Made by a program: the position numbers and the translations under genes | The notes under the pieces: generated by a model | Seen by the model: the letters and a program-made list of their open reading frames with translations, nothing else | Database searches by the model: none | Told to the model about the DNA's origin: nothing | Assembly (NCBI GenBank): GCA_050943115.1 | Contig: JBMNON010000006.1 | Coordinates: 963 to 64,962 of the forward strand | Length of the DNA stretch: 64,000 nucleotides | Source of the DNA: Patescibacteria group bacterium | GTDB lineage: Bacteria; Patescibacteriota; Microgenomatia; UBA12405 | Reading direction: 5' to 3' | Part shown: positions 36,096-52,350 of the stretch, one piece after another | Layout: every line of letters begins with the position of its first letter | How positions within the stretch are numbered: the stretch's first letter is position 1

Positions 36096-36432
36096 TGACG
36101 ACGAGGCGATTTTGGAGGCGGTAAAAATGGCTTTGGAAATGGAAGATTACGAAGTGGAAACCTTAAGCCGGGGAGATAATGCTGTTGATGCAATCAAGCA
36201 ATTTAGCCCAAAACTAATACTGCTCGACTATCTTCTTTCCGGCGAGGACGGGAGAGAGGTGGCAAGCAGAATAAGAAGCAATAAGGAGTGTAGAGACGTT
36301 CCGATTATTATGTTTTCAGCCCACCCTAATGCTGAAAACTATGTCCGAGGTTATGGAGTCAACGGGTTTTTACCCAAACCATTTGACTTGGATGTGCTGA
36401 TCGACATGGTGGGCAAATACACTAGGGCTTAA
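36070..36432 (+). CDS. single-domain CheY-like response regulator
   Basis: It has VLVIDDDEAIL, LILLDYLL and LPKPF. It overlaps the kinase 3' end by 26 nt. Confidence 0.8.
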   Translation: MIKRVLVIDDDEAILEAVKMALEMEDYEVETLSRGDNAVDAIKQFSPKLILLDYLLSGEDGREVASRIRSNKECRDVPIIMFSAHPNAENYVRGYGVNGFLPKPFDLDVLIDMVGKYTRA

Positions 36433-38056
36433 GTTGTCCCAAAGATGAATAGTTTGGTAGCTGCCGGCTCTCTGAGTCTTCCAACTCATAAATATCAGCA
36501 AAGGGAAAAGAGCCTACAATTTTATATTTGTCCAGAACCCCCGAGTCCTTGACTAGGCGGAAAGTTAAATCATTAATATCGTAAGTCCGCATGACAATCC
36601 ATTTAGCCCATCGGTCGGGTGAGCTGGTAGCACTTTGCCAATAGTCGCCAGTACCTTCATGAATAAATCTTTTCATTGGTAAATCCGACGAAAAGATGAT
36701 GGCGTCATGGGAAGCAGCAGAAATCAGAATGAACTCCTGTGTATCGGAGGCGTGTTCCTTGAGCCAATTGCTGACTTGGGTAACATTTTTTTGGCTGGAA
36801 CCGAAACGGGCGTCGTCAATGGTAACAGCATCAAGGCTTATAAAGGCAAAAAGAAAGATAAATCCGAGTATGCCGGTTATTAAGGGTTTGAATTTTGAAG
36901 CCCTATCGAAAAGGTAACCGACAAAAATGGCAATACTGGGAGCCAGCATGACCCCATAGCGGATATTAAACCAAGTTGTGCCAGAAATACCCTGAACGTA
37001 TAAAACTGAGTGACCCATGAATAAAGCCAAGATGTTGAATATAAGAGGAGCGATTAGTGTAAGTGATCCAAGCTTAATAGAAAAAGGTTGTTTTTTGCCG
37101 AACAGGAGCAGGATAAGACCGATAAAAGCCAGCAGTGCCGGAATGGTGTAAGAATTGTAAAGCAATGAATAGAGATAAATTTTTGAAGATAACAATAGGT
37201 TATATTTGGTAGGCAGGGTGCCGGCCTCTTCAAGCTGGGTCTGCTGGGCGTGAGCCGAAAAAGGCCCAAATATAAAGTAAAGTGGATCCCTAAAAATTAA
37301 AGTATTCCAGGCAAACCAAAGAAAAACTCCAAAGAAAGCCAGAGTAGAAAACAAGATAACAACTCCTTCTACGGTTTTATTTGCGTATTTCTTCCAAAGG
37401 AAAACTCCTAGTAATATCACAGAAAAAGCTAGAAGGAACCAGCCATCATAACGGACCAAGGTAGAAAGCATAATGAAAAAAGCCGATTTTATCAGACTTA
37501 GGACTCTTTCTTCCTTAAAGTACATGGTAAGGTAATAGGCGCCCGCAGTCATGGTAGCAAGGAGAAGCAGTTCTGTCATGGCGGTTGATTGTAGATAGAG
37601 AACATTGATATTGAATACAAAGACCATAACAGCGACCAAGCGGCCTAACATAGCAGTGCCAATCTTTTTTAGGAATACATAAATAATTACAGCTGTAGCC
37701 ACGTAGGAAATCATGGATTGAAGAGCACCTGAAAGACCACTGTGCCACATGAATTCGCTCCAAATGGTTGGAATCATAAGAATATGGGGCAGGGGTAACC
37801 AAACCGATCCCAGCTGGGCCAAACCAGGCTGAATGCCTTCAACAACCCGGCGACCAATATTGAGATGGGAACGGGCATCGTTGTATGCCAAACCCAAGCC
37901 ATTGTTGAAAAAGGCGATGTAGGCGGCAACAGAAATTAGGGTCATATAAAAAACCAAAATGACGACATCATGATCCTTAAAAAATCTAAAAACTTGTTTT
38001 GTATAGTTGGTTTTAAGAATGAGGCTTAGGGTGCCATTTTTAAAAGTTAGTTTCAT
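36422..38056 (-). CDS. GT-C fold membrane glycosyltransferase with a C-terminal extracytoplasmic domain
   Basis: There are roughly 11 TM helices. The first loop contains YNDARSHLNIGRR. The soluble C-terminal domain is about 170 aa. Confidence 0.5.
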   Translation of the reverse strand: MKLTFKNGTLSLILKTNYTKQVFRFFKDHDVVILVFYMTLISVAAYIAFFNNGLGLAYNDARSHLNIGRRVVEGIQPGLAQLGSVWLPLPHILMIPTIWSEFMWHSGLSGALQSMISYVATAVIIYVFLKKIGTAMLGRLVAVMVFVFNINVLYLQSTAMTELLLLATMTAGAYYLTMYFKEERVLSLIKSAFFIMLSTLVRYDGWFLLAFSVILLGVFLWKKYANKTVEGVVILFSTLAFFGVFLWFAWNTLIFRDPLYFIFGPFSAHAQQTQLEEAGTLPTKYNLLLSSKIYLYSLLYNSYTIPALLAFIGLILLLFGKKQPFSIKLGSLTLIAPLIFNILALFMGHSVLYVQGISGTTWFNIRYGVMLAPSIAIFVGYLFDRASKFKPLITGILGFIFLFAFISLDAVTIDDARFGSSQKNVTQVSNWLKEHASDTQEFILISAASHDAIIFSSDLPMKRFIHEGTGDYWQSATSSPDRWAKWIVMRTYDINDLTFRLVKDSGVLDKYKIVGSFPFADIYELEDSESRQLPNYSSLGQLKP

Positions 38057-39629
38057 AGGTGTCTTTTTCCAAATAAATTTTTATGGTATGGGTCAGGGCG
38101 ATAACAGAAACGATGGAAAGAACAATCTTAAAGTAATCGTGGGCAGAAAAATTTTCTGAGTAAGTTTGGCGGAAATATAGAGCTTTGGATCGGTTATTTT
38201 CGAGATGATCCAAATTGCGTTCAAAGGTATATTTTTGCTCTTGTCCGGTTTGTTCTTCAAGGGACAATACCTCGACTTGAGGAGGATTGCTAACACTGGT
38301 CAGGGCACCGGCGGTGTTAACGTAAAGAGAATATGAAAACACCGCCGTAAACAACAAGAGGAGGAGAGGTTTTGTCTTGAACTTGTTTAGATATTGAGAA
38401 ATGGCTACGGATAAAAATGCAAAACCAGGAATAAGATAACGCGGACCAAAAGACCAACCTCCCCACGGATCACCCCAGGACGAATAAATAAGAAGGTTGG
38501 TGATAAAAACCGAAAGTATTAAAACCGCAACCTTCTGGTGTTTTTGATATAGAATGGCAACCCCAAAAAAGGCAATAATGACAAGCGGCCAGTAATTGAT
38601 AACTCCCCTATCGGGGCTAAAGATAAGAATATTCATTCCGTTGACCAGATTTCTAGTGTTGAAAAAAGATAGTGCTGAGCGCTGCGATGCCAACTTTTCT
38701 AACTGAGCTGAAGTATTCGGATCAGCGGAATTGTCAGGTTGGGCTGGCAAGCCATTTTCGTCGATACTGCGAATGTTTTTAACCGTACCGGCTAGCTGTA
38801 AGGGGTTACCATAGCTTTTGTCGTGAACCCAGAAGAAAAACAATAAGGTGGATAGTGAGAAAAGAGGAATAAGAAGTAGGTATTTAAGATTTAGACTGAT
38901 TGCCAGATTATTCTTTAGTTTCCTAAAATTAACCAAACGAATTAGGGAATATACCAGTAAGGGAGAAAACAAAAAAGCATTGGGGTAATCTATCGCTAGA
39001 CTCAGGGGAAATAGAAACCAGGTGATAGACAGAGACTTAAGAGGACTAAACTTCAACAAACTATAAAAGGAAGTAAGGAGAAGAAAAACGGAAAGGTGGT
39101 GCTGGTAAAGGTTGACGGCATAAGCAAAGGCAGTGGAGGCAAAAGTAAAAGACAGGGCGGAAACAAAGGAAGAGTTGGAAGATGCTCCAAGTATTCTTGA
39201 GATTGCTTTTATTAGTAAAAAGTTTAAAAAAGCAAAAAGCAAGATGACAGCATAAGTGCCGATTTGCGAGGAACCTAGGAATTTGCCAATCAAATACCCA
39301 GGAATAAGTACAATGGCAGATCCCGGAGCGAAAAGGGAAACATACGAACCATTATGATAGCCGATATCGGGGATGGCAAACCGGGCGACCGGAAGAGTGT
39401 AACTAAAGGAATCTTCTTCGACGATGGAATAAACAAGTGCGAAACGGCCTCTTTCGGGAGAAGTGTCAAAGGGTCCGGCGTCTTTCCAACTGGAAGTGTT
39501 CAGTTTGGCTACATCGGGATTTCCCGGAATGCCACGAAGGGCGAGAACAAGAACCAACAAGGTCAGGAGATAGGGGGCCAGCCTACCAACCGACAATAGG
39601 GATTTCCCAAGGACTTTTAAAATTTTCAT
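38040..39629 (-). CDS. GT-C fold membrane glycosyltransferase (PMT/ArnT-like)
   Basis: It is polytopic, with a first-loop SPERGRFALVYSIVEEDSF motif and an extracytoplasmic C-terminal domain. Confidence 0.5.
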   Translation of the reverse strand: MKILKVLGKSLLSVGRLAPYLLTLLVLVLALRGIPGNPDVAKLNTSSWKDAGPFDTSPERGRFALVYSIVEEDSFSYTLPVARFAIPDIGYHNGSYVSLFAPGSAIVLIPGYLIGKFLGSSQIGTYAVILLFAFLNFLLIKAISRILGASSNSSFVSALSFTFASTAFAYAVNLYQHHLSVFLLLTSFYSLLKFSPLKSLSITWFLFPLSLAIDYPNAFLFSPLLVYSLIRLVNFRKLKNNLAISLNLKYLLLIPLFSLSTLLFFFWVHDKSYGNPLQLAGTVKNIRSIDENGLPAQPDNSADPNTSAQLEKLASQRSALSFFNTRNLVNGMNILIFSPDRGVINYWPLVIIAFFGVAILYQKHQKVAVLILSVFITNLLIYSSWGDPWGGWSFGPRYLIPGFAFLSVAISQYLNKFKTKPLLLLLFTAVFSYSLYVNTAGALTSVSNPPQVEVLSLEEQTGQEQKYTFERNLDHLENNRSKALYFRQTYSENFSAHDYFKIVLSIVSVIALTHTIKIYLEKDTYETNF

Positions 39630-40402
39630 ATACTTTGTTTGGCCGATTTAATAACTAAAGACTCAAAGTCAACCTGATCGAAAGCGATAATTATTTTTAT
39701 AATTTGTGAAAGGGTCCGAGGAGACAGAAAGCGATGGGAATTAAAGGACATAAAGGTCTGAAGCGTGCCCGGCATGAGACAAGTGACTCGGATACCAAAG
39801 CTTTTTAGTTCCCGGGCAAGAGCAAAAGAGAAGCCTTCCAGGGCATACTTGGTAGCCGCATACAATGTCTTGCCGGGAGAGATGTTGGTATTGTGACTGA
39901 TCTTGGAGCCAATATTAATAATTGTGCCGTTTCTTTGAGATTTCATTGGGGGAATTACGGCTTTGGACATAAAAAAAGCGCCTTTCAGGTTGGTGTCGAA
40001 AATCCGATCATACTCTTCTTCGGAGACATTCTCCAGTGGTTTTTCCAGAAAAGTTCCAGCATTATTGATAAGTACATCTATTCTGCCGAACTTGATGGCA
40101 ACATCGTTTATAAATTTTTGGGTTTGGACCGGTTGGCAGATATCGACAGAACGGAGCATAACCTGGTCTTGGCTATCAGTTGTGAACTCCTTATTCAAAT
40201 CAGTCAGATTACGTGAACAGAGAGCCAGAAGAGTACCGGAATCAATCAGTTCTTTTGATATGCATTTCCCAAGCCCCCTGCTAGCTCCAGTAACAACTAC
40301 GACTTTATCTTTTAGATGGGTGTCAAGCGAGCTGACATCGGGAGGGGATTTATTATTTAATTTTGGCAGAAGAAACATGAATGTCTTCGATTGTTGAACC
40401 AA
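39626..40402 (-). CDS. short-chain dehydrogenase/reductase (SDR)
   Basis: It has the TGASRGLGKCI Rossmann motif, NNAG, and a Y...K catalytic pair (YAATK). Confidence 0.8.
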   Translation of the reverse strand: MVQQSKTFMFLLPKLNNKSPPDVSSLDTHLKDKVVVVTGASRGLGKCISKELIDSGTLLALCSRNLTDLNKEFTTDSQDQVMLRSVDICQPVQTQKFINDVAIKFGRIDVLINNAGTFLEKPLENVSEEEYDRIFDTNLKGAFFMSKAVIPPMKSQRNGTIINIGSKISHNTNISPGKTLYAATKYALEGFSFALARELKSFGIRVTCLMPGTLQTFMSFNSHRFLSPRTLSQIIKIIIAFDQVDFESLVIKSAKQSI

Positions 40403-41582
40403 TAATTTTTTCTCTGGTTTTTTGGTAAAAGTCCCTCATCCGAGCCGAGACCTGCCGCCAGGAGTTTTTACGGCCATAAATTATATTTCGCCTTTGCATA
40501 GCCAGTACATGCGGGGAATTTTTATTACTCAGGACATAATTGATTTTTTGGCCTAAGGCTTGGTGATCCTTGGTATCAATTAGAAAACCGTTGATGTTGT
40601 CGTCAATCAAGAAAGGTAGGGCTGTATTGTCGGCAACTAAGCAAACCAAACCTTGGCTTAAGCCTTCATGGACCACATTACAGAAACTTTCCCAAAGAGC
40701 CATATGAACCATCATTTGGGCATGTTTGATGAGGTAGAATTTGTCGATACCATTCACTACACCAACAAATATGACTCTCTTTTCCAGACCCAAATCGGTT
40801 ATCAGCTGAATAAGGGAGTCGTAGTAGTTGCGATCCGAAATGGGACCGGCGATGACATAACTAAGATCGGAGGGGGTCGAGACAAGAGCTTTTATGGCTG
40901 TTTCGTAATTTTTGATGGGATATATGCGACCAATTTGAATGATATATTTACCAAATTCTTTTACCTGATTTTTTATCTGCTGGCTAGCTTGATTTTCTAA
41001 ATCGGCAAAAGCCTCATCCTCAATACCGTTATCGATAACTTCAATTAGTTTAGGATTTAAATGTTTTTTAACCATTTCCTGTTTTTCCCACTCCGAAACC
41101 GCCCGGACACCATCGGCTGACAGGTTAATAAGAAGAACCCCGAGAGTAAAGTGGTAAATCCTTTTTAGAAAAGCGACAAGAGGGGGAAAGACAGACCACT
41201 CCGGATTAAAACCGCCGTGAGGAGTAATAATCAAAGAATAGTTTTTCCTATTAATAATTTTTAAAAAAAGGGTGAAGAGCATCAGCTGGAAATGAGGAAA
41301 GACGTTGAAGTTGTGCAGGCAAAGAAAATCTGTCTGTCGCCAGTCAATGTTCGGAATAAAACCAAAAAGACCAAAGGGGTACCTCCTGACCTTTAGGCCT
41401 TTTATCCTGCACTTTCGAGGCAGGCAGTTTTTGTCCAGCAAGGTGTTTTGGGAAGTGTGGACAGTAAGGCTCCAATTTTCCTCTATAAAATGACAATAAG
41501 TTTCGCGAATATTTGTTTCGATGCCGGCAGTTACCGGACAAAAATATTTTGTAACCACGTCAACTTTTAATTTGTTTTTCAT
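40353..41582 (-). CDS. GT4-family (GT-B) glycosyltransferase
   Basis: The C-terminal half has an E..E-type GT1/GT4 motif (WESFCNVVHEGLSQGLVCLV). Confidence 0.7.
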   Translation of the reverse strand: MKNKLKVDVVTKYFCPVTAGIETNIRETYCHFIEENWSLTVHTSQNTLLDKNCLPRKCRIKGLKVRRYPFGLFGFIPNIDWRQTDFLCLHNFNVFPHFQLMLFTLFLKIINRKNYSLIITPHGGFNPEWSVFPPLVAFLKRIYHFTLGVLLINLSADGVRAVSEWEKQEMVKKHLNPKLIEVIDNGIEDEAFADLENQASQQIKNQVKEFGKYIIQIGRIYPIKNYETAIKALVSTPSDLSYVIAGPISDRNYYDSLIQLITDLGLEKRVIFVGVVNGIDKFYLIKHAQMMVHMALWESFCNVVHEGLSQGLVCLVADNTALPFLIDDNINGFLIDTKDHQALGQKINYVLSNKNSPHVLAMQRRNIIYGRKNSWRQVSARMRDFYQKTREKIIGSTIEDIHVSSAKIK

Positions 41583-42520
41583 AGTCGGGCATATGAAGGG
41601 AAATAATTTTTAACAAATTGGCGGAAACTGACTCCCCTGTCAGAGTACGCTGCCTTGAATTCCCTAAAATCATGTGAATTATCGACACCAATTCGGGGGA
41701 TAGCCAGAGGATCGGTGGTGGGAGAAATTTGGCTGTCATCCATAGAAAAAGCAAGGGAATAACCAGCGGCCTCCACCATGTCCCGAATCATTTTGTTGTA
41801 GACTCCTTTAGGATATGCGAAAAATTTAATGGGAATTCCGTACTTGTCTTCCAGTTGTTTTTTAGAAGTAACAACTTCTTTGTAAAGATGGGATGGGGTA
41901 AGTGTGTTGAAATCAGCGTGGGTAGCGCTATGGCAGCCGAATTCCCAGCCGTCTTTGTCTAAGATTTTAATTTGATCTTTCGTAAGAAAACCGGAAACAG
42001 CTCCGAGCTGAGAAAAATTGGCATTCGCGGGGTCAGAAAGCAGGAAGACAATCGGCTTAAAGTAAAGTCGATTGATAATATCTCTTATGTCAAAAATGCT
42101 TTGAAGGCCATCGTCAAAAGTAAGAAGAAAGCCAGAAATATTTGATTTGTGTCCGGTAACAAAATCATAAAGTTTTGACGAAGAAATGAAGTTGGCGTAA
42201 GTTGCCAGATGAGTGAGTTGTTTCTCAAACTGGTCCGGGTTAACGGCAAAACGCCAGTCGCTTGTGACGATGTCATGGTAACAGAGAACTTTTATTCCGG
42301 GATACTCCCCTTTTATTAAGTTGTTGGAATGGTCAATCAAGTGATAAATTAACCTTCTTATCAAGGTTTTTGGTTCAGTCATGGGGGTAATCCAAATATT
42401 TAGTTGAAGAGGAGATTTGCCAGATCCCTTTGTTAAAGACATAAGGTTTAATCTTGGCCTTAATCTTTGAAATTGCCAGAATATATAAGTAAAAAAAAGT
42501 ATGAAGAGGATACTGGGCAA
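41579..42520 (-). CDS. polysaccharide deacetylase (NodB-homology, CE4)
   Basis: The NodB motifs TFDDG and HSATHADF are present. The annotated start overlaps the upstream GT2 gene by 146 nt, so the internal ATG at 42382 or 42442 may be the true start. Confidence 0.75.
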   Translation of the reverse strand: MPSILFILFFTYIFWQFQRLRPRLNLMSLTKGSGKSPLQLNIWITPMTEPKTLIRRLIYHLIDHSNNLIKGEYPGIKVLCYHDIVTSDWRFAVNPDQFEKQLTHLATYANFISSSKLYDFVTGHKSNISGFLLTFDDGLQSIFDIRDIINRLYFKPIVFLLSDPANANFSQLGAVSGFLTKDQIKILDKDGWEFGCHSATHADFNTLTPSHLYKEVVTSKKQLEDKYGIPIKFFAYPKGVYNKMIRDMVEAAGYSLAFSMDDSQISPTTDPLAIPRIGVDNSHDFREFKAAYSDRGVSFRQFVKNYFPSYARL

Positions 42521-43313
42521 AGATTCTTAAGAAAGCTTTTAGGGCCGGAGCAACAGGGATGCTGTAATGATTTTTTACGAATTGGTAACCATACTCAGAG
42601 ACAAGTTCATCTCTGGCCTGAAAAAACCTCTGACTTTGTCGTAAATGATCCTCAACATTTTGGGGCAATTTGAAAATGGCGACCGCATCTTTAGCGTACT
42701 GATATTTAAAGCCAAACTTTTTGGCGAATAAGTAAGAATGAGCATCTTCGGCCGTAAACTGTTTAAAGTCAATTTTATTGTAGAGCCTTTTGGAAAAAGC
42801 CCGGGCAATACCTTTGCAGGTATATATATTATTGCCTTGGTTGATGTTTTCAAAAAGATAATTTTTGAAAATGTTGCTGACAGCAATTGTCTCCTCAATA
42901 AAATTTTGGGGCGGGATTTCTCGGAGCCTAACAGACGTCAGGTCTGACTTTCTGTCAATAATGGGTCTGACTAACTTTTCAATAAATAAGCTGTCTTGGG
43001 GCAGGAGATCGGCATTAAGAAGAACAAGGATGTCGGTGTCGGTATAGGAAATGATTTGATTTTGGCGGTAAGGGGCACCTTTACGGAAATAGTTTTCCAG
43101 AACAAGAAGGCCGGGAAGGTCAAAACTACTGGCGATTTTGACAGTATTGTCATTACTGCCATCGGAAGCAACAATTACTTTTTTTAAGATATAATCTTTT
43201 TGCTCCTGTTCTTTTAGAAGATTTAGTAAGTTGCCGATATTAGCCTCTTCATTGAAAGCGGGAATGCCAATTGTAACCGTAAGTTTATTTTTATTTCCCA
43301 TAACTACTTTCAA
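42375..43313 (-). CDS. GT2-family glycosyltransferase
   Basis: It has IGIPAFNEE and a DxD-like VASDGSNDNT. Confidence 0.75.
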   Translation of the reverse strand: MKVVMGNKNKLTVTIGIPAFNEEANIGNLLNLLKEQEQKDYILKKVIVASDGSNDNTVKIASSFDLPGLLVLENYFRKGAPYRQNQIISYTDTDILVLLNADLLPQDSLFIEKLVRPIIDRKSDLTSVRLREIPPQNFIEETIAVSNIFKNYLFENINQGNNIYTCKGIARAFSKRLYNKIDFKQFTAEDAHSYLFAKKFGFKYQYAKDAVAIFKLPQNVEDHLRQSQRFFQARDELVSEYGYQFVKNHYSIPVAPALKAFLRIFAQYPLHTFFYLYILAISKIKAKIKPYVFNKGIWQISSSTKYLDYPHD

Positions 43314-46300
43314 TAATTTTTAAAAACTGGTCAGTGCTCTTGGACCAGGAAAAGTTTTTAGACCATTTCAAGCTACCCTTTTCCAGCTTATGCCTTAACT
43401 TTTCGTTATTTATCAACAGGTTTATTTTTTTTGCAAATTCAGGCGCATTGCCCTTGGTGACTAAAAAACCGGTGTGGGGGTTTTGGACGGAATCACGAAG
43501 ACCCGGGACATCTGAAGCAATAACGGGAGTACCGGAAGCATTGGCTTCTATGGCTGATATACCCCATCCTTCCATAGATGAAGGCTGAACAAATATCCAG
43601 GATTGGCTAAGTAGTTTTACTTTTGCTTCTTCGCTAACTTTACCTAAGAATTGAACAAACTTGTCCAACCTTAAGTCTTTTACTAACTGCTCCAGATACT
43701 CTCTACTTTCTCCAAATCCGGCAATTTTTAAAGTCGCCTGCGGGTTTTTCTGAACTACCAGCTTCATGGCTCTTATTAGGGTATCTATAGATTTGTAGGC
43801 TTTAAGACGGCCTAAATACAGAATCGAAGGGTTAATGGTTTTTTTCTGAGGATGAAACTTACTATCTTCGACTCCCGGATTAATAATTTCGATAGGAAAG
43901 CTAGTGCCGAATCCGAGTTTTTCCATGTCTATTTTTGAAGAAGGAGAAATTGTGACCATTTGAGTATTTTTGTAAACCTTGGGCATAAGTTTTCCTTCCA
44001 GAAAGCAGGCCAAAGAAGCCATGGGGGCAGAGAGATTTTGGCGAAAGACATTCTGATGGATGTGATAGAGAAGCCCAATTTTTGGTTTACGACTAAAAAG
44101 AGGTGAAAAGAAAGGGACTCCGTTTATAGAGTCTATGATTACATCTGTCTTTTTTCTAAAAGAGAAGAAGTATTTGATGAAGGCCCACAAATACACCGTA
44201 TAAAAACCGCCTTTCCTAACAACTTTCACACCATCAATATATTCTTGCGAGGGTGAGCGGCGATCATTGCTGCAAAATAAAGTGACGTTGTGACCAAGCG
44301 ATACCAGCCTTTTGGCGATTTCATGAACATAAACTTCGGCGCCCCCTGACCAAATGTGCCGGATATCCCGCCAATTGAAAATTAGAATGTTTAACTTTTG
44401 CTTTTCTTTTTTCGGAGAGTCTTTTAGGTGAAGTCCATGAATAGTTTTCTCCCAATAGTGGGGCTTAACTATAAGTTGATAGAAAGCAATTCCGGCGGCC
44501 ACCGAGGCCATCAACCAGTAAAAGGGTACGAGAAAAACATACTTCATCAGCCACCAGTATTTCCTTTTGGCCAAACCTATCATGTAATAGTAGAGAAAAA
44601 GAAAATTTCCAAATACAAAGGATGCCGCAGCCATATAGAAAATTACGGGGGGATAAAGGGACTCGATAGTGGGGCCGACCAGACTGTTGAGGGCAAAGTA
44701 AGAGATGGTTGTCAGCCACATAAACGGATTAATAAGCATAAAGGCAATCTTGCCACCAATAGAAAGATGAAAAAGTACAGTATGCCAGCCATGACGACGG
44801 AAAAAGCTGATGGGGTCACGAAGATGAACAAGATAAGTTTGAATGTAGCCTTTAACCCAACGGGAACGCTGCCGAAGCCAGTTTTTGGGGTTACTGTTAG
44901 CTTCTTCAAAAGTAACGGAGTCGACGATGGCGGTTTTGGCTCCCCTTTTGAAAAGGCGAATACCAAGATCCGCGTCTTCGGTGACGTTAAAAGGGTCCCA
45001 ACCTTCAAGTTCGAGTAAATCTTTGGTTCTAAAATGATTGCTGGTTCCGCCAAGAGGAATTACAGTATTAACAGTTTGAAGCCCGGTGAGAATAACGTCA
45101 AACCATAGGGAATATTCGGCTGTAAAAAGGCGGGTAAGAAGGTTTTGGTTGGAGTTATAGTAGTTGAGTTTGGCCTGAATGCATTTAACGTCAGAGCTGA
45201 CTTGCTTAAAAGCCAGGTACACCTTTTTTAATTGAAGAGGATCCGGCGAATCTTCGGCATCGTAGATTACAAGGAAATCCCCCTTGGCATGATTTAATCC
45301 GTAATTACATGCCTTGGGTTTAGTTTTAGGTTGAGATTCGGGGACAATTAGGATACGGATATATGGAGGCAAATCCAGTTCATAGGCGGTTTGAACGGTT
45401 TCCTTATCGTCCTTCTCCAAAAGGAGGATAACATCTAGTTTATCTTTGGGCCAGTCAATTTTACTTATAGAATTAAGCAAGTCCGGCAACACCTTAGCTT
45501 CCCGATACATGGGGCAAAGTATGGTATAGACAGGCAGCTCTTTGTCGCGAAGGGTATTAATTTTTTGCGAAGAGATTTCAATTTCCGGCGGAAAATGAAG
45601 ACTGCGTAAAATCAGAATCAGATTGAAGGTGAGATCAATAAAATAAGCAAAAGTGAGAATGGCGGTAAGGGCGATTAGGGTGTTTAAGGGAGAGATTGCT
45701 AAAAATCCCAGAATCAAGGCGATTATCGATAGTAAGGCAATTTTTTGCCAGAGAACCAGAGTATGAACAGCGGAATATTTATGTTCAAGGGTTGTGTGAG
45801 TAATAAACTTAGCCCGATGGTGGATAACTCCAGCCCCGGTCATGGAATTAACGTCACCGGGATCTATCTTTAGCGGTTTTTGCGAAGTAAGATTGAATTT
45901 AACAAATTGATTGCCAAATTCCCTGAACAAAGAGAGTAGTTTTATTTTGGATTTACGGTATGAATGACGATTAATCAATGCTTTAGTCTGGCCGACGGTA
46001 AATCCCATTTCGAGAGAGGTCCGGATTAGAGGGGTTAGTAAATTAAATTTTGTAATATCGACGGCTTCAATTTGTCTGAGAATGTCACTTTTGACCACAA
46101 AGGGTTCGATGGTGCCGGAAAGTCTAATTTTTTTGTAAGAAAAAGATCCGGGTTTCTTTTCTACCCTTAATTCAGAAGCGAGAACAAGTCCGTAAAGCTG
46201 TGTTAGTTCGAACATTTCAGACATAATTTCAGGGGGATAATCAGAGTCGATATCCAATACGGCGATGTAAGGAGAGAAAGATAGAACTAAAGCTTCCAGG

Positions 46301-46542
46301 ACTGAAAAGGTCTTGCCCGATTGGCTGCGCTTTTTTTTGTACTCCAAGGGGTAATATTTAGACAGCACTCTTACAGTCTGCCGCAGGCTACCGTCCCGAC
46401 TTTCATCTAAAATTATGGCTTTATAAGCAATGTTGTTTTTGGTTAATTCGAGATTTAAGCGCTTCAAATAGGATGATAAGGGCTTGGTCTGACTTTTGGT
46501 CAAAATAATCACATCCAATAGTGTCAAGGCATTTTTTGGCAT
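43291..46542 (-). CDS. 1,083-aa tripartite fusion: N-terminal GT2-like domain, a processive cellulose-synthase-like GT2 (D, DxD, TED, QxxRW) with TM helices, and a C-terminal GT4 (GT-B) domain
   Basis: The synthase region has YDAEDSP, VTEDADLG and QRSRWVKG. Multiple TM helices flank the synthase domain. The GT4 region has EGWGISAIEANASGTPVIASD. Confidence 0.75.
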   Translation of the reverse strand: MPKNALTLLDVIILTKSQTKPLSSYLKRLNLELTKNNIAYKAIILDESRDGSLRQTVRVLSKYYPLEYKKKRSQSGKTFSVLEALVLSFSPYIAVLDIDSDYPPEIMSEMFELTQLYGLVLASELRVEKKPGSFSYKKIRLSGTIEPFVVKSDILRQIEAVDITKFNLLTPLIRTSLEMGFTVGQTKALINRHSYRKSKIKLLSLFREFGNQFVKFNLTSQKPLKIDPGDVNSMTGAGVIHHRAKFITHTTLEHKYSAVHTLVLWQKIALLSIIALILGFLAISPLNTLIALTAILTFAYFIDLTFNLILILRSLHFPPEIEISSQKINTLRDKELPVYTILCPMYREAKVLPDLLNSISKIDWPKDKLDVILLLEKDDKETVQTAYELDLPPYIRILIVPESQPKTKPKACNYGLNHAKGDFLVIYDAEDSPDPLQLKKVYLAFKQVSSDVKCIQAKLNYYNSNQNLLTRLFTAEYSLWFDVILTGLQTVNTVIPLGGTSNHFRTKDLLELEGWDPFNVTEDADLGIRLFKRGAKTAIVDSVTFEEANSNPKNWLRQRSRWVKGYIQTYLVHLRDPISFFRRHGWHTVLFHLSIGGKIAFMLINPFMWLTTISYFALNSLVGPTIESLYPPVIFYMAAASFVFGNFLFLYYYMIGLAKRKYWWLMKYVFLVPFYWLMASVAAGIAFYQLIVKPHYWEKTIHGLHLKDSPKKEKQKLNILIFNWRDIRHIWSGGAEVYVHEIAKRLVSLGHNVTLFCSNDRRSPSQEYIDGVKVVRKGGFYTVYLWAFIKYFFSFRKKTDVIIDSINGVPFFSPLFSRKPKIGLLYHIHQNVFRQNLSAPMASLACFLEGKLMPKVYKNTQMVTISPSSKIDMEKLGFGTSFPIEIINPGVEDSKFHPQKKTINPSILYLGRLKAYKSIDTLIRAMKLVVQKNPQATLKIAGFGESREYLEQLVKDLRLDKFVQFLGKVSEEAKVKLLSQSWIFVQPSSMEGWGISAIEANASGTPVIASDVPGLRDSVQNPHTGFLVTKGNAPEFAKKINLLINNEKLRHKLEKGSLKWSKNFSWSKSTDQFLKIIESSYGK

Positions 46543-50151: not shown

Positions 50152-52350
50152 TTACCGGGCAATATATATTTTTAGAGTTTTTTCGGCAATTATATTGTCC
50201 TGGTTGTCTTTAGCTACAAATTTTAGATTGTAAGGACCATTTCCCTGCCAATCCCAGGAGGAGACGTCGACCAAAATTTCTTTATGAGGATGATCTTGGT
50301 TATTGTCGGGCATTTCATTTAATTGACCATCATCCACCTGCCAATACATTTTGTAGTCTGATAGATTGTAGCCCTTTAGGAGAGCCTTGAAAGGCTGGGT
50401 GCCGCCAATGGTGACGCCGTCAGAAGGCCACCAAACTTCAATCTCGTTTTCAGTTGGCGCAGCAGTTTGGGTCGGAGTAGGAGTGACTGGATTTTGGGTA
50501 GGAGTGGCGGCGGGTGTCGAGGGTGTTTGAGTGGGTGTGGCGCTCGGGCCTGATGTCGGATTCGGAGTGGCCGTTGCCGGAGGAGTGGTAGGTGTCGGAG
50601 TGAGGGTTGAGGATTGGTCGACAGTAACATTATCAACGTTATCGAACCAGATAATTAAAGAGGACCAATAATTTTCAAAGACACCGACTTTTAAACGATA
50701 TTCTCCGGTCTGGGTTGGTGCCCACATGGATTTGAAGTTTGTTACTTGTCCTTGGGTTAGGTTCTGATTATCAAAAACTTTTTGATAAACTTTATTTCCA
50801 GAAGAATTGTAAAGCTCAATGTCAACGATTACGTTACTAAGGTTGCGGTCAGGAGTAATATCTGTACTAATTTCCACCGGCTGATTTACTAGTGGAGTTG
50901 AGGGAGTGAAAGAAGATACGGCTTTAAAATTAGACGGCATATCCGGTGTTGAACTGTCAGACTGAAGAACTCTGAAGTTTAGCAGATCATCCTGCCAATG
51001 ATATAAAGACGACCAGCCGGAGGCGAATATGCCCAATTTCAACTGGTAATCTCCAGGGTTAGAAGGATTCCAGTCAACATTAAATGTCGAAACTTGGGCT
51101 GAATTTAGATCTTTATTTTCGAGGTAGCGTTGAAAGACTTTATTGCCGGAGGAGTCATATATTTCAATATCGACAATGACACTACTTATGTTATTTTGAG
51201 GTTTAACATTGACAGTAACCGTAACATTTTGACCGCTATGAGGAGAGGCGGGCTCGAGGCTGACTGAAGTTTCAAAATCCTGGGGAGATTGGGGGTCGCC
51301 AGGATTGGAAGAAGAACCGCTACCAAACCATTGAGCCATAACTTCTTGGGCAGGTTTATTCTGGGGAGTATAGCTACTGGAGCCGGTACCGCCGGCATTG
51401 GGATTGGCTTCCCACTCCCACCAGTGAATCCCCTGCATAAACGAATGTTCATTCCAAAAGGAGAAAAGGGCTTCATAGTCCCGTGATTGTTCTTCCATGT
51501 CAACAGCGTCGTTACGCCACCAGGCGGCAGGTTCTTTGTGGGCACCGTTAACACTTCTGTACCCAATTTCAGTAAAAAGAACCGGTCTCCCCCACCGAGA
51601 TGATAAAGGGGCAATTATTTCGCTATTCCAATTACTCCAAGATTCTTTAAGTTGATCGACGGTGGGCTCGTCTATACCGGTAGCCAGGGGAAAATAGGCA
51701 GCATAACCGATATAATCCAACTGATCCCAAAATTGAATTTCACTTCCCTCCCGGGGAGTAGTGTGTTGGGCACTATAAGTTAAGGTTCCGGAAAAACGAG
51801 ACCGGACTTGAGAGATTAAATCAATCCAAAGCTGAGTATTGCGGGGATCATGATTATGGCTGGTAAGGTTATAAGTTTCAGAACCCAGACAAATTTGAGC
51901 AACCCCTGTTTCTGAAGCAATATCAGCATAGTAATTGAGAATACTGCCATAAGTCTGAAACCAAGTATCTTTATCAGATGGTTCTATATAACGGCGCCAT
52001 TCGCCATTCGAAATCTCGGGATGAACCTTGAGCATAACGCTTAGCCCAATTGATTTGGCGTAGTTTATCCCGCTTCGCAAAGACTCGTCAGTGGGCGTAT
52101 TCCAGCCTCGATATAGATTATTAGAATTGCGGCTGTCCTGATAATAGGGAATGATTAAGGTAACAAAGTTAGCATTGGCGGATTTGAGATTGTTCAGAGA
52201 CTGCCGGAAGGAGTCGGATGAATAGATGGTGGTCGAATTGGGCATAATAGTAGCACCTTTTTGCCAGGAAGAAACCTGAGCATTCACTTTTGTAGTAGAA
52301 AATAAGAAGAACAATAGAAGCAGGATTTTTGCCAGGACTTTTTTCAGCAT
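50152..52350 (-). CDS. secreted clan GH-A (TIM-barrel) glycoside hydrolase, possibly mannanase-like, with two tandem ~100-aa modules, a PT linker and a C-terminal beta-sandwich domain
   Basis: It has a signal peptide and a nucleophile-like VLFTEIGY. The two modules (VDIEIYDSSGNKVFQ...YQLKLGIF...; VDIELYNSSGNKVYQ...YRLKVGVF...) are paralogous to those of the GH5 gene at 10858-12831. Confidence 0.65.
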   Translation of the reverse strand: MLKKVLAKILLLLFFLFSTTKVNAQVSSWQKGATIMPNSTTIYSSDSFRQSLNNLKSANANFVTLIIPYYQDSRNSNNLYRGWNTPTDESLRSGINYAKSIGLSVMLKVHPEISNGEWRRYIEPSDKDTWFQTYGSILNYYADIASETGVAQICLGSETYNLTSHNHDPRNTQLWIDLISQVRSRFSGTLTYSAQHTTPREGSEIQFWDQLDYIGYAAYFPLATGIDEPTVDQLKESWSNWNSEIIAPLSSRWGRPVLFTEIGYRSVNGAHKEPAAWWRNDAVDMEEQSRDYEALFSFWNEHSFMQGIHWWEWEANPNAGGTGSSSYTPQNKPAQEVMAQWFGSGSSSNPGDPQSPQDFETSVSLEPASPHSGQNVTVTVNVKPQNNISSVIVDIEIYDSSGNKVFQRYLENKDLNSAQVSTFNVDWNPSNPGDYQLKLGIFASGWSSLYHWQDDLLNFRVLQSDSSTPDMPSNFKAVSSFTPSTPLVNQPVEISTDITPDRNLSNVIVDIELYNSSGNKVYQKVFDNQNLTQGQVTNFKSMWAPTQTGEYRLKVGVFENYWSSLIIWFDNVDNVTVDQSSTLTPTPTTPPATATPNPTSGPSATPTQTPSTPAATPTQNPVTPTPTQTAAPTENEIEVWWPSDGVTIGGTQPFKALLKGYNLSDYKMYWQVDDGQLNEMPDNNQDHPHKEILVDVSSWDWQGNGPYNLKFVAKDNQDNIIAEKTLKIYIAR

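What the first reader, a model, noticed from the sequence alone, without database searches (positions are those of the whole stretch)
43291..46542. Tripartite 1,083-aa glycosyltransferase fusion (GT2-like, processive QRSRW synthase GT2, GT4) inside a 10-kb surface-glycan island
The island (36422-46542) encodes two GT-C mannosyltransferase-like enzymes, an SDR, a GT4, a CE4 deacetylase, a GT2 and this fused enzyme, with ends that mostly overlap as in an operon. The fusion couples a membrane-embedded, cellulose-synthase-like polymerase (YDAED, TED, QRSRW, flanking TM helices) to priming and decorating GT domains. This hints at a single-polypeptide synthesis-and-export machine for a deacetylated exopolysaccharide or teichoic-like polymer.
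Basis: partly seen in the sequence, partly recalled or inferred. Interest (0 to 1): 0.55.

Follow-up and report, generated by a model that had tools for sequence, protein, structure and literature searches.

The report
Fused membrane sugar-polymer synthase gene
This is a real 1,083-residue gene from a Patescibacteria (CPR) genome that joins a cellulose-synthase-like membrane enzyme to a second sugar-transferase, with a decayed third one in front; it is a trimmed-down member of a very widespread but unstudied enzyme family that almost always works next to outward-facing GT-C sugar transferases.

Summary
The ORF (43291-46542, minus strand, 1,083 aa) and its seven-gene operon are real. The central domain is a membrane-embedded GT2. 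It carries YDAED, TED and QRSRW, and its predicted fold matches BcsA and hyaluronan synthase over about 450 of 476 residues. The C-terminal GT4 is intact.

The N-terminal "GT2-like" part is homologous to DPMS/GtrB/ArnC-type polyprenyl-phosphate glycosyltransferases. Here it has decayed and keeps only 22 of 47 family-conserved residues, against 97% in the core and 96% in GT4. So the enzyme is at most bifunctional.

The fusion is not an assembly error and not rare. A 66%-identical copy sits in the same gene order in an independent sample. The core family has about 2,945 clusters (50% identity) and at least 596 hits in species-representative genomes. Most Patescibacteria copies are longer, about 1,580 aa, with a Wzx/MOP flippase-like domain between the core and GT4. 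The window copy has lost that domain.

The most conserved feature is a partnership with GT-C-fold enzymes. It is seen in 61 of 67 informative loci and is a gene fusion in Ktedonobacterales. Actinomycetota and Chloroflexota relatives carry MshEN c-di-GMP receptor domains.

Best reading: this is the backbone synthase-exporter of a surface polysaccharide, which the GT-C enzymes finish outside the cell. The product and processivity are untested.

The parts
43291..46542 (-). Whole fusion gene, 1,083 aa (Ndom - TM1/2 - GT2 core - TM bundle - GT4)
   Evidence: ORF list and translation. It is 100% identical to a public protein named 'MAG: glycosyltransferase [Patescibacteria group bacterium]'.
45838..46542 (-). 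aa 1-235: degenerate DPMS/GtrB/ArnC-like GT2 domain (probable pseudo-enzyme domain)
   Evidence: The family profile hits DPMS 5mlz (E=2e-38), ArnC and GtrB. The window copy keeps only 22 of 47 positions that are at least 90% conserved. It has lost PxxNE, the second Asp of DD, R124/R125, the D-x-QSGLK-x-F motif, W166 and D169. Identity to the nearest relative is 38%, against 80% for the core. Pfam GT2 is below cut-off.
45787..45837 (-). aa 236-252: conserved junction motif GAG-x4-K-x-F-I-T-H-T-T-L of unknown role, just before TM1
   Evidence: G236, G238, T248, H249 and L252 are invariant in alignment A1. T, H and L are invariant in A2.
45595..45753 (-). aa 264-316: two N-terminal transmembrane helices (TM1, TM2)
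   Evidence: Hydropathy. AlphaFold helices 25-44 and 46-77 of the core model, which correspond to aa 264-283 and 285-316.
44890..45528 (-). aa 339-551: cytosolic GT-A catalytic domain of the central GT2, with PMYRE 344, EKDD 376, YDAED 427, PLGGTSNHF 496 and TED 521
   Evidence: Pfam PF13641, PF13632 and PF00535 above cut-off. Profile alignment to BcsA puts these motifs on PTYNE, DDG, DCD, FFCGS and TED. 81 of 213 positions are at least 95% conserved across three phyla.
44791..44889 (-). aa 552-584: interface helix carrying QRSRW (558-562)
   Evidence: AlphaFold helix 313-334 of the core model. It aligns to QRIRW of BcsA and to RQKSRW of NfrB.
44467..44787 (-). aa 586-692: C-terminal transmembrane bundle (helices 586-628, 632-659, 663-692), the candidate glycan channel
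   Evidence: AlphaFold secondary structure. Foldseek alignments to BcsA and HAS span 444-495 columns of the 476-residue model. Conserved aromatic and polar residues across three phyla: W609, T612, Y636, N646, F647, Y675, W676, S680.
44434..44466 (-). aa 693-703: KPHYWEKTIHG, the most conserved short motif of the family; candidate gating loop
   Evidence: P694, W697, K699, T700, H702 and G703 are at least 95% conserved in 198 sequences. The resemblance to the BcsA FxVTxK and HAS WGTR gating-loop motifs is from memory and was not tested.
43294..44352 (-). aa 731-1083: GT4 (GT-B fold, retaining) domain with an E-x7-E motif at 991-999
   Evidence: Pfam PF13439 and PF00534, E=7.5e-43. PDB relatives include MshA, TarM, PimA and GlgA. 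It keeps 97 of 101 family-conserved positions.
42375..43313 (-). Stand-alone GT2 (312 aa) with a C-terminal hydrophobic helix
   Evidence: Pfam PF00535, 72 bits. It lies downstream of the core gene in 38 of 80 related loci. It is fused to the C-terminus of the fusion protein in P0018.
41579..42382 (-). CE4 polysaccharide deacetylase, probably 267 aa starting at M47 (the ORF as listed runs to 42520); no signal peptide
   Evidence: Pfam PF01522, 65 bits. TFDDG and HSATH motifs are in the translation. Homologues are 262-280 aa and align from query residues 40-55.
40353..41582 (-). Second GT4 (409 aa), Agl16-like
   Evidence: Pfam PF00534, 92 bits. NCBIfam Agl16 gives 160 bits, below its cut-off. 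The gene is absent from the nearest relative's operon.
39626..40402 (-). Short-chain dehydrogenase/reductase (258 aa as listed)
   Evidence: Pfam adh_short, 167 bits. It is present in only 4 of 80 related loci and absent in L082.
38040..39629 (-). GT-C-like polytopic protein 1 (529 aa)
   Evidence: No Pfam hit. It is a distant paralogue of the next gene (hhalign probability 92.8%, E=4e-7). 1 of 19 family members hits PMT_2. It lies downstream of the core gene in 38 of 80 loci.
36422..38056 (-). GT-C-fold protein 2 (544 aa) with an invariant Asp60 in YNDARSHLxIGRRVVEG after TM1 and a C-terminal soluble domain; the most conserved partner of the core GT2
   Evidence: AlphaFold pLDDT 78, pTM 0.81. 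Foldseek top hits are ArnT 5f15 (E=2.4e-5, TM 0.48), AglB, STT3, DPY19, PglB, ALG9 and AftB. 5 of 20 relatives hit PMT_2. The partner is present in 61 of 67 informative loci and fused to the core in 6.

Best explanation
The gene encodes a bifunctional inner-membrane glycosyltransferase that makes the backbone of a cell-surface polysaccharide.

**Proposed mechanism**
- The central GT2 is a BcsA/HAS/NfrB-type inverting synthase. Its cytosolic GT-A domain (DAED, TED, QRSRW) sits on a bundle of transmembrane helices. That bundle probably conducts the growing chain outward while it is being made.
- The fused cytosolic GT4 (retaining) most likely supplies a second linkage. It could act as a primer, a side branch or the alternate sugar.
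- The N-terminal DPMS/ArnC-like domain is a decayed remnant. It is kept as a scaffold and is not an enzyme.
- On the outer face, the two GT-C-fold enzymes encoded at the end of the operon decorate or attach the emerging polymer, using polyprenyl-phosphate-linked sugars.
- The cytoplasmic CE4 removes an acetyl group from a HexNAc-containing intermediate before export.

**Shown:** domain identities, motif integrity, fold similarity, decay of the N-domain, and conserved linkage to GT-C.

**Inferred:** processivity, the channel, the order of steps, the donor sugars and the acceptor.
For: **Motifs and fold**
- All catalytic signatures of processive GT2 synthases are present and invariant.
- The AlphaFold model (pLDDT 79, pTM 0.79) matches BcsA (E=5e-14, TM 0.55-0.60 over about 450 columns), Chlorella-virus and Xenopus hyaluronan synthases, and chitin synthase.

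**Transmembrane region**
- Aromatic and polar residues inside the C-terminal TM helices and the C-terminal WxKTxHG motif are conserved across three phyla. This is expected for a functional conduit, not for a mere anchor. TM1 has no position that is at least 95% conserved, and TM2 has one.

**Relatives**
- Relatives in Actinomycetota and Chloroflexota carry 2-6 MshEN c-di-GMP receptor domains. This is the regulatory logic of the exopolysaccharide synthase NfrB (PMC8669469).
- NfrB shares DAED-x-x-P, TEDxDxGxRL and RQxSRW with the core.
- A source label on relatives is 'XagB'. The xag operon makes a biofilm polysaccharide (PMC3609779).

**Other domains and partners**
- GT4 keeps 97 of 101 conserved positions and E-x7-E.
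- The GT-C partner is present in 61 of 67 informative loci and is fused to the core in Ktedonobacterales.
- GH113 hydrolase genes sit beside those core-GT-C fusion genes. One also lies 3.6 kb upstream here and in the nearest relative. Cognate hydrolases accompany other synthase systems in the same way.
Against: - No product, processivity or channel was demonstrated. Model coordinates could not be inspected.
- The model shows only three long helices after the GT domain. An even number of membrane crossings is needed to keep GT4 in the cytosol, so the topology is unresolved.
- The non-processive archaeal mannosyltransferase PcManGT is an equally good structural match per target length (TM 0.65-0.71).
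- The usual company of this family is a DPMS-like GT2, a Wzx/MOP-like domain, extra GT2/GT4 genes and GT-C enzymes. That is the signature of lipid-linked oligosaccharide pathways, not of classical synthase systems.
- GT-C enzymes need a lipid-linked donor, and the source of that donor in this genome is not identified. The N-domain is decayed. The neighbouring GT2 resembles DPMS only weakly (E=7.6e-6; best PDB hits are GpgS).
- NCBIfam scores for PgaC/IcaA (58 bits against a cut-off of 422) and CelA (53 against 699) are far below threshold.
Confidence: 0.5

Rival explanations
1. Lipid-linked oligosaccharide assembly line. The central GT2 and the GT4 are non-processive. Each adds one sugar to a polyprenyl-phosphate-linked glycan on the cytosolic face. 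In the long forms of the protein, the N-terminal DPMS-like domain starts the glycan and the built-in Wzx/MOP domain flips it. The GT-C enzymes then transfer it to a protein, such as an S-layer or pilin protein, or to a wall polymer. This is the logic of archaeal Agl and bacterial O-glycosylation pathways. The transmembrane helices of the core bind the lipid carrier rather than forming a channel.
For: - The family architecture is Ndom(DPMS-like)-core-MOP-GT4 in 129 of 198 sequences.
- The MOP identity of the insert is supported: 8 of 24 members hit PF01943 and 2 hit MatE.
- PcManGT, an N-glycan mannosyltransferase with a minimal cellulose-synthase-like fold, is a strong structural match.
- Both GT4s score best, or second best, to the archaeal N-glycosylation protein Agl16.
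- The GT-C model matches the oligosaccharyltransferases AglB, STT3 and PglB as well as ArnT.
- The CE4 is cytoplasmic, as expected for editing a lipid-linked intermediate.
Against: - The TED and QxxRW motifs and a long stretch of conserved aromatic residues in the membrane part are typical of polymer-forming enzymes.
- MshEN-regulated relatives often consist of just core plus GT-C, with no other GT or flippase nearby.
- The window protein works without any MOP domain, and no MOP gene exists in the 64 kb.
Confidence: 0.3
2. ArnC/ArnD/ArnT-like amino-sugar decoration pathway as the main function. A GT2 makes polyprenyl-P-HexNAc, the CE4 de-acetylates it, and the GT-C enzymes transfer the amino sugar to a surface lipid or polymer. 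In this reading the central GT2 would be the lipid-sugar synthase and perhaps its translocator.
For: - The N-domain family matches ArnC (E=5e-27) and DPMS.
- The top structural hit of the GT-C partner is ArnT.
- The CE4 is cytoplasmic, like ArnD.
- The GT2 + deacetylase + GT-C set recurs in 15 of 80 loci.
Against: - The domain that resembles ArnC is exactly the one that has decayed here.
- The central GT2 has TED and QxxRW, which serve sugar acceptors, not a phosphate acceptor (established knowledge of GT2 synthases).
- CE4 is absent from most loci (65 of 80), so it is accessory.
Confidence: 0.12
3. Artefact or dead gene: a chimeric assembly of three ORFs, or a decaying pseudogene of the longer four-module enzyme.
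For: The N-domain is degenerate and the MOP domain is missing relative to most homologues.
Against: - An independent sample holds a 1,083-aa orthologue at 66% identity with the same flanking genes.
- The core and GT4 retain 96-97% of conserved positions.
- There are no frameshifts or stops.
- Short forms arose repeatedly next to long forms.
Confidence: 0.03

Closest known systems
Bacterial cellulose synthase BcsA (PDB 4hg6, 4p00, 9b8v) and class I hyaluronan synthases (7sp6-9, 8smn)
   Same: Both have a GT-A domain with D, DxD-type (DAED), TED and QxxRW motifs. Both have interface helices and flanking transmembrane helices. The predicted fold aligns over about 450 of 476 residues.
   Different: - Sequence identity is only 14-21%.
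- There is no PilZ domain, BcsB or other known partner.
- It has fewer TM helices than BcsA.
- PLGGTSNHF replaces FFCGS.
- The gating-loop-like motif WxKTxHG lies after the last helix.
- It is fused to GT4 and to a DPMS-like remnant, and coupled to GT-C enzymes.
E. coli NfrB, a c-di-GMP-activated GT2 exopolysaccharide synthase with an MshEN domain (PMC8669469)
   Same: Shares HDAED-x-x-P, TEDxDxGxRL and RQxSRW. Relatives of the window's core in Actinomycetota and Chloroflexota also carry MshEN domains.
   Different: - hhalign probability is only 75% with 23% identity.
- In NfrB the MshEN domain is C-terminal and single. In these relatives it is N-terminal and repeated 2-6 times. It is absent in Patescibacteria.
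- NfrB partners are an outer-membrane porin and YbcH, not GT-C.
PcManGT, a Pyrobaculum membrane mannosyltransferase with a minimal cellulose-synthase-like fold (PDB 6yv7)
   Same: Best structural match per target length (TM 0.65-0.71). There is also a sequence match over the first half of the GT domain (E=1e-8).
   Different: PcManGT is 355 aa with no fused domains. The sequence match ends before TED and QxxRW, so equivalence of the acceptor side was not shown.
DPMS / GtrB / ArnC polyprenyl-phosphate glycosyltransferases (5mlz, 5ekp, 9hwj)
   Same: The N-terminal domain family is homologous (E=2e-38 to DPMS). Like GtrB, it is followed by two TM helices.
   Different: In the window protein most signature residues are lost (22 of 47 retained). 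Its closest relative has even lost the DxD motif.
Three-component extracytoplasmic glycosylation systems: GtrB/GtrA/Gtr-type, CsbB/YfhO, GacI/GacK(Wzx)/GacL, ArnC/ArnD/ArnEF/ArnT (recalled from established knowledge)
   Same: The same cast appears in the wider family: a DPMS-like GT2, a flippase-like MOP domain, a GT-C transferase and sometimes a CE4-type de-acylase.
   Different: Here these parts are fused to, or strictly linked with, a BcsA-type synthase. No such synthase is part of any of those systems.
XagB of the Xanthomonas xagABCD biofilm polysaccharide operon (PMC3609779, PMC4643136)
   Same: A source (JGI) names two relatives 'glycosyltransferase XagB'. XagB is a GT2 needed for a biofilm exopolysaccharide.
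   Different: The label is automatic. No XagB sequence was compared here. No GT-C partner is described for xag.

Membership tests
Processive membrane-embedded GT2 synthases (BcsA / HAS / PgaC / NfrB class) | GT-A domain with the D, DxD, TED and QxxRW signatures | tested here: met
   EKDD 376, YDAED 427, TED 521 and QRSRW 558 are present. They are invariant in the family and aligned to the BcsA motifs.
Processive membrane-embedded GT2 synthases (BcsA / HAS / PgaC / NfrB class) | GT domain packed on interface helices and a transmembrane bundle; overall fold like BcsA/HAS | tested here: met
   AlphaFold pTM 0.79. Foldseek to BcsA gives E=5e-14 and TM 0.55-0.60 over 444-450 columns. HAS gives E about 1e-13.
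Processive membrane-embedded GT2 synthases (BcsA / HAS / PgaC / NfrB class) | Continuous glycan-conducting pore through the membrane part | not testable with these tools
The only evidence is indirect: conserved W609, Y636, N646, F647, Y675 and W676 in the helices.
Processive membrane-embedded GT2 synthases (BcsA / HAS / PgaC / NfrB class) | Gating loop motif (FxVTxK in BcsA, WGTR in HAS/Chs; recalled from the literature) | tested here: inconclusive
   W697-E-K-T-I-H-G703 is highly conserved and similar in pattern. It lies after the last helix and was modelled with pLDDT below 50.
Processive membrane-embedded GT2 synthases (BcsA / HAS / PgaC / NfrB class) | Makes and exports a polymer | not testable with these tools
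   No biochemical data exist for any family member in the searched literature.
PgaC/IcaA (TIGR03937) and CelA (TIGR03030) equivalogs | Score at or above NCBIfam's curated cut-off | tested here: not met
   57.8 bits against a cut-off of 422.3, and 53.2 against 699.1. The protein is not a member of either specific family.
DPMS/GtrB/ArnC-type polyprenyl-phosphate GT2 (N-terminal domain) | Homology to the family | tested here: met
   The profile of homologous N-domains hits DPMS at 2e-38, ArnC at 5e-27 and GtrB at 4e-25. The window domain matches a homologue's N-domain at 7e-33.
DPMS/GtrB/ArnC-type polyprenyl-phosphate GT2 (N-terminal domain) | Intact catalytic signature (PxxNE, DD, DxDxQ-PPE, R, D-x-QSG-x-K-x-F) | tested here: not met
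   The window sequence reads LTKSQ, DE, DIDSDYPPE and SEL in place of these signatures, and the QSG motif is deleted. 22 of 47 conserved positions are retained. Pfam GT2 is below cut-off.
GT4 (GT-B fold retaining glycosyltransferases) | Both Rossmann halves (PF13439 + PF00534) above cut-off and the E-x7-E motif | tested here: met
   45 and 146.5 bits. EGWGISAIE lies at 991-999. 97 of 101 conserved positions are kept.
GT-C glycosyltransferases (partner genes 36422-38056 and 38040-39629) | Polytopic GT-C fold with a conserved acidic residue in the first outer loop | tested here: met
   For 36422-38056, Foldseek hits ArnT, AglB, STT3, PglB, DPY19, ALG9 and AftB, and D60 is invariant. For 38040-39629 the evidence is only a profile-profile link to the former (92.8%) and 1 of 19 PMT_2 hits.
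GT-C glycosyltransferases (partner genes 36422-38056 and 38040-39629) | Pfam/NCBIfam family membership (PMT_2, LA_3751/3752 family) | tested here: not met
   The window proteins have no Pfam hit. NCBIfam NF047440 gives 45 and 29 bits against a cut-off of 200. They are distant relatives only.
CE4 polysaccharide deacetylases (41579-42382) | PF01522 above cut-off with the TFDD and H-x-x-x-H metal motifs | tested here: met
   65.1 bits against a cut-off of 23.1. TFDDG and HSATH are visible in the translation.

The most novel reading that the evidence does not exclude
The core GT2 plus GT-C pair may define an unrecognised route of polysaccharide biogenesis in monoderm-type lineages (Patescibacteria, Chloroflexota, Actinomycetota). 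In this route a BcsA-like synthase extrudes a chain directly into a physically coupled GT-C enzyme, which glycosylates or anchors it as it emerges. The coupling is a gene fusion in Ktedonobacterales. Lineage-specific add-ons include a DPMS-like lipid-sugar synthase, a Wzx-like flippase, GT4, and MshEN c-di-GMP sensors. In CPR bacteria this would be the main surface-glycan machine, packed into one 1,580-aa polypeptide.
Probability: 0.3. Interest if true: 0.7.

Novelty: new variant of a known kind. Interest (0 to 1): 0.45.

Why it matters
Patescibacteria are tiny bacteria with reduced genomes that live attached to host cells. Their surface chemistry is almost unknown. This gene family is one of their most widespread large envelope enzymes: about 2,945 clusters at 50% identity, and at least 596 hits in species-representative genomes. 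No paper in the searched library describes it.

The strict linkage, and in some genomes fusion, of a cellulose-synthase-type enzyme with GT-C transferases would be a new way of coupling synthesis, export and decoration of a surface polymer. It gives testable candidates for the glycan that mediates CPR-host contact. The MshEN-bearing relatives would also be new c-di-GMP-controlled exopolysaccharide systems in Actinomycetota and Chloroflexota.

The window's own copy is of more modest interest. It is a natural reduced version, with a dead N-domain and no flippase domain. It shows which parts are dispensable.

Tried and rejected
- **Mis-assembly.** Rejected. An independent 66%-identical orthologue has the same layout and neighbours, and other genomes hold Ndom-core-GT4 forms.
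- **Foreign 'island'.** Rejected. GC is uniform and synteny is conserved across the phylum.
- **Separate Wzx/MOP gene elsewhere in the window, compensating for the lost domain.** None was found with a single sequence or with a profile.
- **N-domain as an active priming GT.** Rejected on residue loss.
- **Neighbouring 312-aa GT2 as an obvious DPMS replacement.** Not supported. The match to the N-domain profile is weak (7.6e-6), and the best PDB relatives are GpgS.
- **Extracellular PgaB/IcaB-like role for the CE4.** Made unlikely by the corrected start and the lack of a signal peptide.
- **Sequence searches of the GT-C proteins and the MOP insert against PDB.** These found nothing. Structure prediction was needed instead.
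- **Rfam on the window.** No hits.
- **Promoter and terminator scans.** Counts were no higher than in shuffled sequence.
- **GH113 as a general partner.** It was found only beside four Chloroflexota fusion genes, and 3-4 kb away in the window and its relative. It remains a lead only.
- **Literature searches for the family in CPR.** Nothing relevant was found.

Full report
**1. The observation**

The window holds an ATG-started ORF of 1,083 codons at 43291-46542 on the minus strand. It is the first gene of a run of seven same-strand genes whose ends overlap or abut, down to 36422.

- Pfam places a GT2 at aa 339-618 and a GT4 at aa 733-1057. All scores are well above the curated cut-offs.
- The quoted motifs are there: YDAED 427-431, TED 521-523, QRSRW 558-562.
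- The neighbours are a 312-aa GT2, a CE4 deacetylase, a 409-aa GT4, an SDR and two ~530-aa polytopic proteins without Pfam hits.
- GC content is the same as in the rest of the window. This is not a foreign island.
- The exact protein is public as 'MAG: glycosyltransferase [Patescibacteria group bacterium]'.

**2. The fusion is real and common**

A protein search gave 6,140 hits at E<=1e-10.

- A 1,083-aa orthologue (P0002, 66% identity) comes from an unrelated sequencing run. It sits in the same context: GH113, aldo-keto reductase, fusion gene, GT2, CE4, two polytopic proteins, then a response regulator and a histidine kinase. This rules out a chimeric assembly.
- Most relatives, however, are 1,530-1,620 aa. 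They align to the query in two blocks, aa ~5-715 and aa ~715-1083, separated by a ~470-aa polytopic insertion.
- That insertion belongs to the MOP/Wzx flippase superfamily. 8 of 24 members hit PF01943 and 2 hit MatE.
- A profile of the central module scanned against one genome per species found at least 596 hits. They are in Patescibacteria (Woese-, Gottesman-, Levy-, Ames-, Dojka-, Doudna-, Morani-bacteria, Saccharimonadales), Chloroflexota (Ktedonobacterales, Anaerolineae, Dehalococcoidia) and Actinomycetota (Paraconexibacter, Solirubrobacterales, Gaiellales).
- The same profile found 2,945 cluster representatives at E<=1e-30 in a library clustered at 50% identity.

**3. The three parts, one by one**

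*(a) N-terminal domain, aa 1-235*

- In relatives this is a canonical GT2 of the polyprenyl-phosphate glycosyltransferase kind. Their profile hits Pyrococcus DPMS (E=2e-38), ArnC (5e-27) and GtrB (4e-25). As in GtrB, two TM helices follow it.
- In the window protein it is homologous (E=7e-33) but degenerate:
  - PxxNE has become LTKSQ, and DD has become DE.
  - The Gln after DxD is lost, and R124/R125 are lost.
  - The D-x-QSGLK-x-F motif is deleted, and W166 and D169 are gone.
- Of the positions that are at least 90% conserved in 118 homologues, it keeps 22 of 47. The core keeps 193 of 199 and GT4 keeps 97 of 101.
- P0002 has even lost the DxD motif.
- Between these two closest relatives the N-domain is 38% identical, the core 80%, the TM bundle 83% and GT4 75%.
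- The domain is therefore best read as a non-catalytic remnant.

*(b) Central module, aa 240-705*

- A family profile matches E. coli BcsA (E=3e-18), Rhodobacter BcsA (6e-12) and PcManGT (1e-8). The motif-for-motif correspondence is PLYKE/PTYNE, EDD/DDG, DAED/DCDH, PLGGTSNHF/FFCGSCAVI, TED/TED and QRSRW/QRIRW.
- AlphaFold gave pLDDT 78.9 and pTM 0.79. The model has two N-terminal TM helices, the GT-A domain, an interface helix carrying QRSRW, and three long C-terminal helices (586-628, 632-659, 663-692).
- Foldseek against the PDB ranks BcsA first (E=5e-14, TM 0.55-0.60, ~450 aligned columns). Next come Chlorella-virus and Xenopus hyaluronan synthases, PcManGT (TM per target 0.65-0.71) and yeast chitin synthase.
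- Across 198 sequences from three phyla, TM1 has no position that is at least 95% conserved and TM2 has one.
- The C-terminal helices, by contrast, carry conserved W609, T612, Y636, N646, F647, Y675, W676 and S680.
- The motif P694-x-x-W-x-K-T-x-H-G703 is the most conserved short stretch. From memory, this motif resembles the gating loops FxVTxK (BcsA) and WGTR (HAS, chitin synthase). I could not test that.

*(c) GT4, aa 731-1083*

- It is standard and intact, with E-x7-E at 991-999.

**4. What travels with it**

I translated all ORFs of 80 related loci and searched them with the window's proteins.

- The module occurs in many architectures:

| Architecture | Number of 198 sequences |
|---|---|
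| Ndom-core-MOP-GT4 | 129 |
| core alone | 25 |
| Ndom-core | 16 |
| Ndom-core-GT4 (the window's type) | 12 |
| core-MOP-GT4 | 6 |
| core fused to a homologue of the window's 36422-38056 gene (in Ktedonobacterales and Chloroflexia) | 6 |

- Further variants carry the neighbouring GT2 (P0018) or a sugar-phosphate nucleotidyltransferase (P0014) fused at the C-terminus.
- Short forms are scattered among long forms in core-sequence distance. The flippase-like domain was therefore lost repeatedly.
- The constant partner is the GT-C-like gene. Of 67 loci with enough downstream sequence, 6 have it fused and 55 have it downstream on the same strand, 13 of them within 16 nt.
- The other neighbours are accessory: GT2 in 38 of 80 loci, extra GT4 in 27, CE4 in 15 and SDR in 4.

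**5. The partners**

- The 544-aa protein (36422-38056) and its ~2,000 relatives are all annotated 'hypothetical' with no Pfam domain.
- Its AlphaFold model (pLDDT 78, pTM 0.81) matches only GT-C enzymes: ArnT (E=2.4e-5, TM 0.48), AglB, STT3, DPY19, PglB, ALG9, AftB, PMT and Emb.
- 5 of 20 more distant family members hit Pfam PMT_2.
- An invariant Asp60 sits in YNDARSHLxIGRRVVEG just after TM1, where GT-C enzymes keep their catalytic acid.
- The 529-aa neighbour is a distant paralogue (hhalign 92.8%).
- GT-C enzymes act on the outer face and use polyprenyl-phosphate-linked donors (established knowledge).
- The CE4 gene as listed starts at a TTG with a hydrophobic leader. Homologues are 262-280 aa and align only from residues 40-55. 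The real start is probably M47 (ATG at 42382), which gives a protein with no signal peptide or anchor. It is thus a cytoplasmic deacetylase like NodB, ArnD or HfsH, not an extracellular one like PgaB or IcaB.

**6. Clues from distant relatives**

- In Paraconexibacter, Anaerolineaceae and Dehalococcoidia the core carries 2-6 N-terminal MshEN domains. MshEN is a high-affinity c-di-GMP receptor that is known to be fused to glycosyltransferases (PMC5013675).
- The characterised example is E. coli NfrB, a c-di-GMP-activated GT2 with DxD, TED and QxxRW that makes a secreted polysaccharide (PMC8669469).
- NfrB aligns to the core profile weakly (hhalign 75%, E=2.4e-5). It shares the unusual DAED-x-x-P, TEDxDxGxRL and RQxSRW strings.
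- In four Chloroflexota loci a GH113 glycoside hydrolase gene lies directly beside the core-GT-C fusion gene. In the window and in its nearest relative a GH113-Wzt_C protein lies 3-4 kb upstream on the same strand. Cognate hydrolases are typical companions of synthase-type systems. GH113 enzymes characterised so far are beta-mannanases (from memory). This is a lead on the product, no more.

**7. Interpretation**

I favour a BcsA/HAS/NfrB-like synthase-exporter whose product is elaborated by the fused GT4 and finished outside by the GT-C enzymes (confidence 0.5). The reasons are:

- intact sugar-acceptor motifs;
- fold similarity through the membrane part;
- conserved aromatic residues in the helices;
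- c-di-GMP sensor domains and hydrolase genes in relatives;
- the existence of minimal core + GT-C systems.

The main rival (0.3) is a non-processive, lipid-linked oligosaccharide assembly line. The DPMS-like and Wzx-like modules of the long forms, the Agl16-like GT4s, the PcManGT match and the OST-like hits of the GT-C model all suggest it.

An unresolved point for both readings is topology. GT2 and GT4 must both face the cytosol, yet only three long helices are modelled between them.

A third reading, an ArnC/ArnD/ArnT-like amino-sugar decoration pathway, probably describes the accessory genes rather than the core (0.12). Artefact or pseudogene is very unlikely (0.03).

**8. Verdict**

- The protein is a reduced, effectively two-enzyme member of a very large, uncharacterised family.
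- I found no description of this family or pairing in the searchable literature.
- I rate it a new variant of a known kind, of moderate interest (0.45). The family-level question is more interesting than this particular gene.

Noticed in passing
window 21834-31670 (-): A giant 3,278-aa ORF with DUF5122 and Rax2 beta-propeller repeats, Calx-beta, fn3, purple-acid-phosphatase-N and CarboxypepD_reg domains. It is probably a surface protein. It contains the stretch at 22-26 kb where GC rises to 0.53-0.60 with GC skew up to 0.42, in a genome of about 0.40 GC.
   Followed up: partly
window 50152-52350 (-); also L082 5277-7449, L063 2851-4248, L066 8231-9771, L070 4586-5911, L072 8142-9467: A GH113 glycoside hydrolase with a Wzt_C-like carbohydrate-binding region lies 3.6 kb upstream of the fusion gene, on the same strand. 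It holds the same position in the nearest relative. GH113 genes also lie directly beside core-GT-C fusion genes in four Chloroflexota loci. It may be the cognate hydrolase of the polymer.
   Followed up: partly
window 58243-63508 (+): A second glycan gene cluster: a GT9 (heptosyltransferase-like), a GT4, a 642-aa GT4-SIS domain fusion, an SDR and further ORFs.
   Followed up: no
window 41579-42520 (-): The listed CE4 ORF starts at a TTG with a hydrophobic leader and overlaps the upstream gene by 146 nt. Homologues indicate the true start is the ATG at 42382 (M47). That gives a 267-aa protein without a signal peptide.
   Followed up: yes
L069 9065-11326, L071 7499-11428, L076 6934-10947, L079 8612-11368: Actinomycetota and Chloroflexota homologues of the core GT2 carry 2-6 tandem N-terminal MshEN (c-di-GMP receptor) domains. 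Each is followed by a GT-C-like gene. These are candidate new c-di-GMP-controlled polysaccharide systems.
   Followed up: partly
L040 1-15775 (Saccharimonadales contig): Three to four paralogous core GT2 genes, alternating with GT-C-like genes, are packed in about 14 kb. A separate MOP-like gene and a GT2 follow them.
   Followed up: no
window 33460-36432 (+); L082 18133-21125: An NMT1-like binding protein, a HAMP/HisKA histidine kinase and a response regulator lie just beyond the last GT-C gene, convergent with the operon. They hold the same position in the nearest relative. They may be a regulator of the operon.
   Followed up: no
window 39626-41582 (-) versus L082: The 409-aa GT4 and the SDR between CE4 and the first GT-C gene are absent from the otherwise collinear operon of the nearest relative. 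This looks like a recent insertion or loss that would change the glycan.
   Followed up: no
L003-L019 and others (record titles): Many third-party MAG records titled 'uncultured Gammaproteobacteria', 'Bdellovibrionales' or 'Pseudomonadales' carry loci that are 60-65% identical and collinear with Patescibacteria ones. The taxonomic labels of these records look unreliable.
   Followed up: no
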